Assembly: GCF_003991155.1 (NCBI RefSeq)
Contig: NZ_CP031297.1
Direction: 5' to 3' (one strand)
DNA: 64,000 nt
From: Escherichia coli
GTDB lineage: Bacteria; Pseudomonadota; Gammaproteobacteria; Enterobacterales; Enterobacteriaceae
Part shown: one piece after another, positions 32,946 to 34,841 of the stretch
How the letters are laid out: each line of letters starts with the position of its first letter
How positions within the stretch are numbered: the first letter of the stretch is position 1
Made by a program: the position numbers and the translations under genes
Notes under the pieces: model-generated
Told to the model about the DNA's origin: nothing
What the model saw: only the letters and a program-made list of their open reading frames with translations
Database searches by the model: none

Positions 32946-34173
32946 GAGCGTTCTGGTGGCGTTGATGTTCTCTGTGGCTGGCGGGGCATACGCTCAAGAG
33001 TCTCCGCTCACAGAGCAGGATAAGGCGCTTATTGAGCAAGGAAAGCAAATTGCCCAAAAGGCCCAGAAGATGGAAATGCCATCTCTGTTGCAAAACCAAC
33101 ACATGGACGAGGCTCAGGCCGAAGCCAAGGCATTTTTCAAGCAGCTCCAAACTACTAACCCAACGCTCAAGGAGATGCACCGGAAACAGGCTGAAAAGGG
33201 TATCTACTCTGACCATCGGATACTGGTTTTCGCCTCGTTGTCTCTTGGCGAACAGGGGTTAGATGACGTCCTAACGGCGGTGTCAGGCCAGCCTGATTCT
33301 GTAATTGTGTTCCGTGGCATCCCGGAAGGAATGAACTTGGGGCAGGGAGTTAAAGCTATTCAGGCGCTCGCGGCCAAAAAAGACCCAGTGCCGAACATCA
33401 TCATCAACCCTACGTTGTTCAAAACGTACAACATCACAGCCGTTCCCACGATTGTGATGCTGGAGGATGAGCCGCTGCCTGGCGAACAACCAAACGTCGT
33501 CGCCCAGGTCTCCGGGTTGTCCGACCCGGTATGGTTGGCTCGGGAAGTGGATAACGGAGAAAAAGGCGATCTCGGCGTTAAGGGGCCGGTGGAGAAAATC
33601 AGTGAGCCAGACCTTATTGATGTTGCCAAGAAACGCCTTGCCAATATCGACTGGGAAGAGAAGAAGAAACAGGCTATAGAGCGCTTCTGGACCAAGCAGA
33701 ATTTCAATGAGCTGCCAAGAGCGCCAAAATCTCGAACACGAGAAATTGACCCTAGCGTCATGATCACCAGTGACATCAGCACTCCGGATGGCACTGTGTT
33801 CGCTCACGCGGGTGACGTGATCAACCCATTGTGCGATCCGAAGGAAGTTTGCAAGCCTGGAACGCGGCCATTTACCCAAGCGGTCGTAGTTTTCGACCCG
33901 CTGGACAAAAAGCAAATGGAACTACTCGCCAAGAAGCTGCCTGAAATCAAGCTGGAGCCTGGCGTACAACGGATCACCTATATCGCCACAGAGTTCGACA
34001 AAGACAAAGGCTGGGATTCCTACAAGAGTGTCACCGACAACTTTGACGCGCCGGTATATCTGCTGACGCCAGATCTGATTACCCGGTTCGAGCTGGAGCA
34101 CACACCGAGCGTCATTACTGCCAGAGGCAAGAAGTTTGTTGTCCGCGAACTTGCTGAGGAGGGCGGTGAATGA
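32908..34173 (+). CDS. Periplasmic conjugative transfer protein (signal peptide), unknown function
   Basis: ORF 421 aa; overlaps preceding gene by 38 nt. Confidence 0.8.
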   Translation: MIRSLAAHIPCSKSVLVALMFSVAGGAYAQESPLTEQDKALIEQGKQIAQKAQKMEMPSLLQNQHMDEAQAEAKAFFKQLQTTNPTLKEMHRKQAEKGIYSDHRILVFASLSLGEQGLDDVLTAVSGQPDSVIVFRGIPEGMNLGQGVKAIQALAAKKDPVPNIIINPTLFKTYNITAVPTIVMLEDEPLPGEQPNVVAQVSGLSDPVWLAREVDNGEKGDLGVKGPVEKISEPDLIDVAKKRLANIDWEEKKKQAIERFWTKQNFNELPRAPKSRTREIDPSVMITSDISTPDGTVFAHAGDVINPLCDPKEVCKPGTRPFTQAVVVFDPLDKKQMELLAKKLPEIKLEPGVQRITYIATEFDKDKGWDSYKSVTDNFDAPVYLLTPDLITRFELEHTPSVITARGKKFVVRELAEEGGE

Positions 34174-34841
34174 TTTTTGCCCCGGCTTTCCAACCAATTA
34201 AAGACGTCGGCACAGGTTCGTTTGTCGCTGCTGAGGTACTGGCTCGTTGGTACGACGAAGGCCGGGTTCTTACACCATCCTCTCTGTCATCTCCTCCTTA
34301 TTGGGGACTGGTGGATATGGAGATGGCACGGTTCATTCAGGACAACCTTCATTATTGCTTGGATCTGTACCCGGCTCTCTTTCTGAATGTCTCCGAACAA
34401 ACTTTGCAATCAGACGTCATCTTCAAGGCGTGGTGTAGGGTTGTCCGCGACATTGCTAAAAATCACTCATCACGGCTTGTCATCGAGATTACAGAGGGCA
34501 TTCAGGACGCCTCTCTCGCATCGAGATGGGAGGCTCTGACCGAAATAGGGGTTGAGCTGGCGCTGGATGACTATGGAGACAAAAACTCTTCTCTGGATCG
34601 CCTGAGCCGTTATGACTGGCACTATTGCAAGTTTGACGCGAGAAGACTGCGGTCGCTTGAAGACTACCCGGCCATCCTCCACTGCCGCCGAAAAGGCATA
34701 CAGCTCATTGCTGAGCAGGTGGAGAGCTTCCCATTGGGGGAGAGCGCCAAATTACTTGGACTGTCATGGCAACAAGGTTTCTATCACGGGAAGCCTGCTG
34801 TCATGGAGAAAAATTTGAATTACGTAAAGGCCTTACCATGA
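34170..34841 (+). CDS. Stand-alone EAL-domain protein (c-di-GMP phosphodiesterase-like) with variant motifs
   Basis: FQPI start, EVL (for EAL), EIEITE, DDYGD (for DDFGTG), KFDxxxL, AEQVE, QQGFYHGKP. Confidence 0.75.
   Translation: MIFAPAFQPIKDVGTGSFVAAEVLARWYDEGRVLTPSSLSSPPYWGLVDMEMARFIQDNLHYCLDLYPALFLNVSEQTLQSDVIFKAWCRVVRDIAKNHSSRLVIEITEGIQDASLASRWEALTEIGVELALDDYGDKNSSLDRLSRYDWHYCKFDARRLRSLEDYPAILHCRRKGIQLIAEQVESFPLGESAKLLGLSWQQGFYHGKPAVMEKNLNYVKALP

What the first reader, a model, noticed from the sequence alone, without database searches (positions are those of the whole stretch)
34170..34841. EAL-domain protein with variant motifs embedded in the T4SS operon
The 223-aa product has the EAL-domain landmarks (FQPI, EVL in place of EAL, EIEITE, KFD, AEQVE, QQGFYHGKP) but DDYGDKNSS in place of the usual DDFGTGYSS. 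It is translationally coupled to the flanking transfer genes by ATGA overlaps at both ends. It could be an active c-di-GMP phosphodiesterase linking transfer to second-messenger levels, or a degenerate c-di-GMP sensor.
Basis: partly seen in the sequence, partly recalled or inferred. Interest (0 to 1): 0.55.

Follow-up and report, generated by a model that had tools for sequence, protein, structure and literature searches.

The report
EAL phosphodiesterase gene in IncC transfer operon
A small enzyme-like gene for breaking down the bacterial signalling molecule c-di-GMP really does sit inside the DNA-transfer operon of this IncC resistance plasmid; databases already annotate it but nobody seems to have tested it, and it has been inherited with that operon over a long evolutionary distance.

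Summary
Window 34170-34841 (+) encodes a 223-aa single-domain EAL protein (Pfam EAL, E 4.5e-24; AlphaFold pLDDT 90.7; best fold matches are c-di-GMP phosphodiesterases). The window is IncC plasmid backbone. [quoted passage not shown] I found no functional study.

All canonical catalytic and metal-binding residues are present (E22, R26, N73, E106, E109, D133, D134, K154, E182, E185, Q202). They are invariant among 22 orthologues and intact in 71 of 81 cluster representatives. "EVL" is not a defect, because active RocR has the same AEVLARW. Only loop 6 departs (DDYGDKNSS), and its middle residues vary freely across the family.

The gene keeps its traW-EAL-traU position and ATGA start overlap down to about 24-30% identity. 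It co-diverges with TraW (Mantel r 0.89) and is under purifying selection (dN/dS 0.12-0.27). SXT/R391, Rts1 and three other relatives lack it, so it is an accessory, not a structural part.

Most likely it is a cytoplasmic c-di-GMP phosphodiesterase made together with the mating apparatus. Catalysis and physiological role are untested. Moderate interest; a new member of a known kind.

The parts
34170..34841 (+). vcrx082 / WP_000575345.1: 223-aa stand-alone EAL-domain protein. It has no signal peptide and no other domain.
   Evidence: ORF and translation; Pfam EAL E 4.5e-24; RefSeq annotation; AF2 pLDDT 90.7 and pTM 0.87; Foldseek hits to EAL phosphodiesterases; named vcrx082 in PMC4542580.
34157..34162 (+). 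AGGAGG Shine-Dalgarno sequence, 7 nt upstream of the EAL start codon, inside the 3' end of traW.
   Evidence: Read directly from the sequence.
34170..34173 (+). ATGA overlap of the EAL start with the traW stop. The overlap recurs in most orthologous loci examined.
   Evidence: The same 4-nt overlap occurs in L002, L003, L006, L009-L011, L020-L022.
34233..34247 (+). EVLAR motif (E22, L24, R26), equivalent to the ExLxR motif. It is identical to the AEVLARW of RocR.
34386..34388 (+). N73, the metal-binding asparagine. It aligns with the asparagine in RocR's LAFNVHPSQL and in TBD1265's LSVNIS.
34485..34496 (+). EITE motif (E106, E109).
34566..34592 (+). DDYGDKNSS. D133 and D134 are the metal-binding aspartates. 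The rest is a non-canonical loop 6 in place of DDFG(T/A)GYSS.
34629..34637 (+). KFD motif (catalytic K154, D156).
34710..34724 (+). AEQVE motif (E182, E185), equivalent to EGVE.
34770..34796 (+). QQGFYHGKP motif (Q202, G203, P209).
34838..34843 (+). ATGATG junction. The EAL stop TGA is at 34839-34841. traU starts at 34841 (RefSeq) or at 34838.
28935..35845 (+). mpf2a operon: dsbC (28935-29642), traC (29639-32086), vcrx079 (32101-32418), trhF (32415-32945), traW (32908-34173), vcrx082, traU (34841-35845). No sigma-70-like promoter was found on the + strand anywhere in the scanned region (28000-40000).
   Evidence: Annotation of the identical plasmid region (window coordinate = L001 coordinate + 19999). 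Operon structure and AcaCD dependence from PMC4542580. Promoter and terminator scan.

Best explanation
vcrx082 is a minimal, cytoplasmic, single-domain EAL protein that most likely hydrolyses c-di-GMP to pGpG. It is transcribed from the AcaCD-activated mpf2a promoter and translationally coupled to traW and traU, so it is made only when, and in proportion as, the mating apparatus is made. The proposed effect is a fall in c-di-GMP in cells that have switched on transfer, either donors or fresh transconjugants. That would shift the cell away from c-di-GMP-dependent matrix and adhesin production, or relieve a c-di-GMP-dependent brake, in a way that favours mating. Shown here: the fold, the complete catalytic residue set, the operon position and coupling, purifying selection, and long co-inheritance with the T4SS operon. 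Inferred: catalysis, substrate, and the physiological consequence. It is an accessory rather than a structural T4SS component, because related functional systems lack it.
For: EAL fold: Pfam E 4.5e-24; AF2 pLDDT 90.7; Foldseek TMq 0.73-0.79 to TBD1265, RocR, MucR, YahA, YkuI. Catalytic residues E22, R26, N73, E106, E109, D133, D134, K154, E182, E185 and Q202 align with the conserved motifs of TBD1265 and RocR. They are invariant in 22 orthologues at 37-91% identity, and the full pattern is kept in 71 of 81 representatives of clusters at 50% identity. The family profile ranks characterised active PDEs first (RocR 6.9e-16, PA3825, YahA/PdeL), above LapD. dN/dS is 0.12-0.27 against IncC and IncA variants. 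There is a strong SD, an ATGA overlap, and no + strand promoter-like site anywhere in the scanned region. The operon is AcaCD-dependent (PMC4542580). Synteny traW-EAL-traU is kept in IncA, Edwardsiella, Vibrio penaeicida and metagenomic elements down to 24-30% identity. EAL distances track TraW distances (Mantel r 0.89, p about 2e-4), and the EAL tree mirrors the TraW/TraU tree.
Against: Loop 6 is non-canonical: DDYGDKNSS, with its middle three residues hypervariable in the family and 0 of 63 canonical. From my recollection of the RocR loop-6 literature, this loop matters for Mg2+ binding, dimerisation and turnover. The loop resembles that of YkuI (DNIGKESSNLDRI). As I recall, YkuI binds c-di-GMP but was inactive in vitro. 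The segment between KFD and AEQVE is about 8-9 residues shorter than in RocR and TBD1265. As I recall, that segment belongs to the canonical EAL dimer interface. A few family members have lost catalytic residues (P0062, P0092, P0097, P0103, P0118, P0122). There are no experimental data on activity, c-di-GMP levels or a mutant phenotype. The EAL gene is the fastest-evolving gene of the operon.
Confidence: 0.55

Rival explanations
1. It is a c-di-GMP receptor, or a conditionally active enzyme. The protein binds c-di-GMP (with metal) but turns it over poorly on its own. It would act as a sensor that couples c-di-GMP levels to T4SS assembly or activity through a protein partner, in the manner of YkuI, FimX or LapD-type EAL domains.
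For: Non-canonical and hypervariable loop 6. A YkuI-like loop, with YkuI among the best structural matches (TMq 0.79, rmsd 3.1). A shortened segment after KFD. Very stable embedding in the T4SS operon suggests a T4SS-specific rather than a global role.
Against: As I recall, known degenerate receptors (FimX, LapD) have lost metal-binding or catalytic residues. Here all are invariant. FimX is absent and LapD ranks below the active PDEs in the profile search. TraW and TraU, the coupled neighbours, are described in the T4SS literature as periplasmic pilus-assembly proteins, so they are unlikely partners for a protein with no signal peptide (for their family assignment).
Confidence: 0.25
2. It is a YdiV-like anti-activator. 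The stand-alone EAL-like protein binds the FlhD-like subunit of the FlhDC-like master activator AcaCD and gives negative feedback on transfer gene expression, independently of c-di-GMP.
For: AcaCD is FlhDC-related and activates the operon that contains vcrx082 (PMC4542580). From my own knowledge, YdiV is a stand-alone EAL-like protein of similar size that sequesters FlhD. This is analogy only.
Against: YdiV does not appear even at E<=1 in the profile search against PDB sequences. As I recall, YdiV has lost the c-di-GMP-binding and catalytic residues, whereas this family conserves them. SXT/R391 elements use the homologous SetCD activator but have no such gene.
Confidence: 0.05
3. It is a cargo-like host-manipulation or anti-defence gene: a phosphodiesterase for another cyclic (oligo)nucleotide signal, or a c-di-GMP PDE whose role is host fitness (motility, virulence, biofilm) unrelated to conjugation.
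For: Plasmids carry many stand-alone EAL genes outside transfer operons, for example pT75-VIM and pESI. A decayed A/C-like element in the Xenorhabdus nematophila chromosome has fragmented traC, traU and traN but an intact EAL gene.
Against: No hit in PADLOC defence models. The gene does not sit in a variable cargo region. It keeps one fixed position inside the mpf operon and co-diverges with TraW. GC content matches its neighbours. The residue set is the canonical c-di-GMP EAL set.
Confidence: 0.1

Closest known systems
RocR (Pseudomonas aeruginosa) EAL domain, a characterised c-di-GMP phosphodiesterase (PDB 3sy8)
   Same: Best PDB match of the family profile (E 6.9e-16). Identical AEVLARW motif. 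The N, EITE, DD, K-x-D, E-x-V-E and QG(Y/F) motifs all align. Both have SSLDRL after loop 6. Foldseek TMq 0.77.
   Different: RocR has an N-terminal receiver domain and a canonical loop 6 (DDFGAGYSS). vcrx082 is a bare 223-aa domain with DDYGDKNSS and about 8-9 fewer residues between the K-x-D and E-x-V-E motifs.
YkuI (Bacillus subtilis) EAL domain (PDB 2bas/2w27)
   Same: One of the best structural superpositions (TMq 0.79, rmsd 3.1). Similar non-canonical loop 6: GKESSNLDRI versus GDKNSSLDRL.
   Different: YkuI has DN instead of DD and a C-terminal PAS-like domain. Overall sequence similarity is low (profile E 6e-8, ranked 38th).
Stand-alone enterobacterial EAL proteins: PdeH/YhjH (active PDE) and YdiV (degenerate anti-FlhDC factor). 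This comparison rests on my own knowledge.
   Same: Single-domain cytoplasmic EAL proteins of about 230-255 aa. PdeH is itself part of the FlhDC flagellar regulon, which parallels an EAL gene under the FlhDC-like AcaCD.
   Different: vcrx082 is shorter, plasmid-borne and embedded in a T4SS operon. YdiV is not detectable by sequence, and as I recall it lacks the catalytic residues that vcrx082 keeps.
c-di-GMP enzymes on related mobile elements: DgcK/DgcL diguanylate cyclases of SXT/R391 ICEs (Bordeleau et al. 2010, cited in PMC4542580), and an EAL-domain gene on plasmids carrying type 3 fimbriae (PMC5023117, listed but not read)
   Same: Mobile-element-encoded c-di-GMP turnover enzymes in elements of the same broad conjugation family or niche.
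   Different: The SXT/R391 cyclases lie in variable cargo insertions, and they make rather than degrade c-di-GMP. vcrx082 is a fixed backbone gene inside the mating-pair-formation operon.

Membership tests
EAL domain (Pfam PF00563), c-di-GMP-specific phosphodiesterase | EAL (beta/alpha)-barrel fold | tested here: met
   Pfam E 4.5e-24 covering model positions 13-236 of 236. AF2 pLDDT 90.7 with alternating strand/helix elements. Foldseek probability 1.00 to more than 50 EAL structures.
EAL domain (Pfam PF00563), c-di-GMP-specific phosphodiesterase | ExLxR motif (substrate- and metal-binding Glu and Arg) | tested here: met
   E22-V-L-A-R26, identical to RocR. R26 is kept in 81 of 81 representatives and E22 in 79 of 81.
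EAL domain (Pfam PF00563), c-di-GMP-specific phosphodiesterase | Metal-binding Asn, Glu (E-x-x-E) and Asp-Asp | tested here: met
   N73, E106, E109, D133 and D134 align with the corresponding motifs of TBD1265 and RocR. They are invariant in 22 orthologues.
EAL domain (Pfam PF00563), c-di-GMP-specific phosphodiesterase | Catalytic Lys (K-x-D), the Glu of the EGVE motif, and Gln of QG(Y/F) | tested here: met
   K154, E182, E185 and Q202. Q202 is kept in 81 of 81 representatives.
EAL domain (Pfam PF00563), c-di-GMP-specific phosphodiesterase | Conserved loop 6, DFG(T/A)GYSS | tested here: not met
   The sequence is DDYGDKNSS. Only D-D-[YF]-G and the following S are conserved. The three middle residues are hypervariable, and 0 of 63 family members are canonical.
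EAL domain (Pfam PF00563), c-di-GMP-specific phosphodiesterase | Hydrolysis of c-di-GMP to pGpG; dimer-dependent activity | not testable with these tools
   Needs purified protein. No published assay was found.
Degenerate EAL c-di-GMP receptors (FimX/LapD type) | Loss of catalytic or metal-binding residues with the fold retained | tested here: not met
   All catalytic residues are present and conserved. LapD ranks below the active PDEs, and FimX is absent at E<=1.
YdiV-type EAL-like anti-FlhDC factors | Sequence relationship to YdiV, with loss of c-di-GMP binding and catalytic residues | tested here: not met
   No YdiV chain at E<=1 in the profile search of PDB sequences. Catalytic residues are retained. 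Binding to AcaD is not testable here.
IncA/C-like (ACL) plasmid mpf2a operon backbone gene (vcrx082) | Position between traW and traU in dsbC-traC-079-trhF-traW-x-traU | tested here: met
   100% identical to more than 400 IncC plasmids. Named vcrx082 in PMC4542580. The same position is kept in IncA and more distant elements.

The most novel reading that the evidence does not exclude
The 'mini-EAL' could be an ancient, dedicated regulator of this class of MOBH/F-type conjugative T4SS rather than a general c-di-GMP drain. One possibility is that it creates a local low-c-di-GMP zone, or senses c-di-GMP, to gate a cytoplasmic T4SS component such as the TraC or TraD ATPases. Another is that it feeds back on the FlhDC-like activator AcaCD, as YdiV does on FlhDC. 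Either would be a direct mechanistic link between c-di-GMP signalling and conjugation in the main multidrug-resistance plasmid family of Enterobacterales and Vibrio.
Probability: 0.15. Interest if true: 0.7.

Novelty: new member of a known kind. Interest (0 to 1): 0.4.

Why it matters
IncC/IncA plasmids are major carriers of carbapenemase and other resistance genes, and their transfer regulation (AcaCD, AcaB, exclusion, SGI1 parasitism) is studied intensively. Yet papers that describe the operon either abbreviate it to "dsbC-traC-trhF-traWU" (PMC11493245) or list vcrx082 without assigning a function (PMC4542580). This work shows three things. The gene has a full catalytic residue set. It is under purifying selection. 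It has been inherited together with the T4SS operon across very divergent elements. Together these make a concrete question testable: does switching on conjugation deliberately lower c-di-GMP, and does c-di-GMP control transfer efficiency or the donor's surface state? If so, c-di-GMP signalling would be a lever on the spread of these plasmids. If the gene has no transfer phenotype, it is simply one more plasmid-borne EAL gene.

Tried and rejected
1. Recent insertion or cargo: rejected. GC content is the same as the flanks, the position is fixed, and the gene co-diverges with TraW.
2. Defence or anti-defence link: no PADLOC hit. PHROG hits are only generic EAL-containing families of unknown function.
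3. YdiV-like relationship: no sequence signal. Kept only as a low-probability mechanistic analogy.
4. The nearest non-ACL plasmid EAL genes, on pT75-VIM and pESI, were checked for a T4SS context: none.
5. NCBIfam: only sub-threshold domain-level matches to named PDEs (GepA, DibA, PdeL-like, RimA, LapD). No equivalog assignment.
6. Internal promoter or terminator that would uncouple the gene: no + strand promoter-like site; only a weak hairpin at 34864-34879 inside traU.
7. Literature: ten full-text searches found no functional study. The only mention by name is the operon listing in PMC4542580. The IncC conjugation TraDIS paper (doi 10.1038/s41564-020-0775-0) is not held, so I could not check whether insertions in this gene affect transfer.
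8. Loop-6 comparison with generic multidomain EALs: the hits nearest to the profile also often carry G-x-[ED]-[NY]-S-N-type loops. The loop variant is therefore not unique to this family, and it does not decide activity.
9. I could not count how many IncC plasmids carry a disrupted copy. A few truncated clusters exist in large contigs (P0024, P0026, P0029) against hundreds of intact copies.
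Full report
**What is there**

The window region is IncC (A/C2) conjugative-plasmid backbone. A 5-kb query around the finding is 100% identical to hundreds of PLSDB plasmids typed IncC / MOBH / MPF_F. In the annotated copy NZ_CP028170 the ORF is WP_000575345.1, "EAL domain-containing protein". It lies between a TrbC/TraW-family pilus-assembly gene and traU. Some GenBank records call it "diguanylate phosphodiesterase".

The exception is "EIEITE", which actually reads VIEITE.

The start overlaps the traW stop as ATGA, and an AGGAGG sequence lies 7 nt upstream. The stop lies in ccATGATGc.

**Is it an EAL domain?**

Yes.
- Pfam EAL matches at E 4.5e-24 over residues 3-209.
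- phmmer against PDB sequences finds TBD1265, PdeA, RocR, PA3825 and YahA.
- An AlphaFold2 model built on 22 orthologues is confident (pLDDT 90.7, pTM 0.87). It shows the alternating strand/helix pattern of the EAL barrel.
- Foldseek against the PDB returns only EAL domains at the top, with TMq 0.73-0.79 and E down to 2.8e-14.

The protein has no signal peptide or second domain and begins essentially at the FQPI strand. It is a minimal cytoplasmic EAL domain.

**Residue-level reading**

Alignment to TBD1265 and RocR places the following residues on the conserved EAL motifs:
- E22/R26 on ExLxR
- N73 on the Asn
- E106/E109 on E-x-x-E
- D133/D134 on DD
- K154/D156 on K-x-D
- E182/E185 on E-G-V-E
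- Q202 on QG(Y/F)

RocR, an active enzyme, has the identical AEVLARW, so "EVL" is not a degeneracy.

Two things do depart from the canon. The first is loop 6, DDYGDKNSS against DDFG(T/A)GYSS. The second is a stretch about 8-9 residues shorter between KFD and AEQVE. The loop resembles that of YkuI, DNIGKESSNLDRI.

From my own recollection of the EAL literature, loop 6 and the following helices form the dimer interface and influence metal binding and turnover. Also from recollection, YkuI bound c-di-GMP but was inactive in vitro. This is the main reason catalysis cannot be taken for granted.

**Conservation**

A first homologue search gave orthologues from 91% down to 37% identity. In their alignment all eleven catalytic and metal-binding residues are invariant. 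In loop 6 only D133, D134 and G136 are invariant, and Y135 (Y/F) and S140 are nearly so.

A profile search of 1.84 billion cluster representatives found about 100 clusters of 214-250-aa stand-alone EAL proteins (E 1e-112 to 1e-24). Only after these do generic multidomain EAL proteins begin.
- Of 81 full-length representatives, 71 keep the full pattern ERNEEDDKEEQ.
- Four have a conservative E185D/Q change.
- Six are clearly degenerate.
- The three middle residues of loop 6 are hypervariable, and none of 63 scorable members has the canonical loop.

The family profile ranks characterised active PDEs first among solved structures (RocR, PA3825, YahA/PdeL, DcpA, TBD1265, DosP). LapD ranks lower, and FimX and YdiV do not reach E<=1.

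**Selection**

Against another IncC lineage, a divergent IncC and an IncA plasmid, dN/dS is 0.12, 0.27 and 0.17. That is similar to the neighbouring tra genes. In amino-acid terms, however, the EAL gene is the fastest-evolving gene of the operon. For example, against an Edwardsiella plasmid it is 53% identical while TraW, TrhF, TraC and TraU are 72-86% identical. SNPs between IncC lineages cluster at 34370-34569.

**Context and history**

The gene is vcrx082 of pVCR94. [quoted passage not shown] The SXT operon is dsbC-traC-s093-trhF-traWUN, with no equivalent gene (PMC4542580). Rts1 (IncT) also has traW directly followed by traU (PMC10838148).

I found no + strand promoter-like site anywhere in the scanned region from 28000 to 40000, and no convincing terminator within the operon. 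A strong terminator-like hairpin at 28801-28824 precedes dsbC. GC content matches the flanks.

The traW-EAL-traU order recurs in the following elements, in most of them with the 4-nt start overlap:
- IncA, 72% identity
- Edwardsiella plasmids, 53%
- a Vibrio penaeicida plasmid, 40%
- genomic and metagenomic contigs down to 24-30% identity

One short contig (L018) was uninformative.

Pairwise EAL distances correlate with TraW distances (Mantel r 0.89, p about 2e-4). The EAL tree has the same shape as the TraW/TraU tree. The gene has therefore been inherited with the operon, not inserted repeatedly.

Relatives at comparable TraU distance lack the gene: an Azospirillum plasmid, a P. aeruginosa plasmid, and a Moellerella plasmid that carries an AcaB-family regulator gene. 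In an unbootstrapped NJ tree they sit as sisters to the two EAL-positive clades. Several losses are more likely than two gains at the same site. Rts1 conjugates, and SXT/R391 elements are self-transmissible by established knowledge; both lack the gene. It is therefore not a structural requirement of this T4SS type.

**How it most likely works**

The best-supported reading is a c-di-GMP phosphodiesterase produced stoichiometrically with the mating apparatus whenever AcaCD turns the operon on. It would lower c-di-GMP in transfer-competent cells. The enzyme identity rests on the fold and on a complete, strongly conserved catalytic set. The timing rests on operon structure and translational coupling. 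The downstream effect is inference, whether that is less matrix and adhesin, a changed surface, or relief of a c-di-GMP-dependent brake. I put this at about 0.55.

The main rival, at about 0.25, is a c-di-GMP-binding sensor or conditionally active enzyme working through a partner. The unusual loop 6, the shortened segment after KFD and the very tight association with the T4SS operon favour it. The intact catalytic residues count against it.

A YdiV-like antagonist of the FlhDC-like AcaCD is an attractive analogy but has no sequence support and conflicts with the conserved active site (about 0.05). A conjugation-independent host-manipulation or anti-defence role (about 0.1) fits poorly with the fixed operon position and has no PADLOC support. 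The intact EAL gene in a decayed Xenorhabdus element is a small point in its favour.

**Known or new**

The domain call is already in public annotation, and the gene has a locus name in the pVCR94 literature. Ten full-text searches found no functional work. A recent paper abbreviates the operon as "dsbC-traC-trhF-traWU" (PMC11493245).

What this analysis adds:
- the full catalytic complement, and the point that EVL is not a degeneracy
- the definition of a distinct mini-EAL subfamily with a free-varying loop 6
- the deep co-inheritance with the trhF-traW-traU block, with lineage-specific losses

It is a new, uncharacterised member of a known kind. Interest is moderate because it offers a clean, testable link between c-di-GMP and conjugation in a clinically important plasmid family.

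Noticed in passing
window 38795-39655 (-): A 286-aa lipoprotein gene downstream of traN. It is sfx (vcrx085), the IncC surface-exclusion factor described in PMC11493245. In L001 it is annotated only as 'hypothetical protein'.
   Followed up: partly
L012 (Xenorhabdus nematophila HF952043.1, 335877-356548): A chromosomal, decayed A/C-like transfer region. traC, traU and traN are broken into fragments and interrupted by unrelated and IS-related ORFs. The EAL gene is still an intact 223-aa ORF, 88% identical to the IncC protein.
   Followed up: partly
window 34370-34569 and 36570-37169: Nucleotide differences between IncC lineages are clustered. There are 12 SNPs in 200 bp inside the EAL gene and up to 26 per 200 bp inside traN, against 0-5 in most other bins. 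Synonymous divergence of the EAL gene (dS 0.097) is about 4 times that of its neighbours. This suggests recombination patches.
   Followed up: partly
window 32101-32418 (+): vcrx079, a 105-aa hypothetical protein between traC and trhF. A small ORF of similar size sits at this position in most of the related operons examined, and blastx detects similarity to vcrx079 in L014, L017 and L019. No Pfam family is recorded for it.
   Followed up: no
window 34838-34843: The traU start is ambiguous (ATGATG). RefSeq uses the second ATG. The purely mechanical ORF list extends traU upstream to 34766, inside the EAL gene, which is almost certainly not the real start.
   Followed up: partly
L023, L024, L025: Plasmids with TraU 47-54% identical to IncC TraU have traW directly abutting traU, or 215 bp upstream of it, with no EAL gene. 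They are Azospirillum p1, P. aeruginosa pF061_1 and Moellerella pW1-a. The Moellerella plasmid nevertheless carries an AcaB-family regulator gene nearby.
   Followed up: partly
window 28801-28824 (+): A strong terminator-like hairpin (10-bp stem, 6 GC pairs, T-run) just after the large Ig-like-domain gene and about 110 bp upstream of dsbC. This fits a transcription-unit boundary ahead of the mpf2a operon.
   Followed up: no
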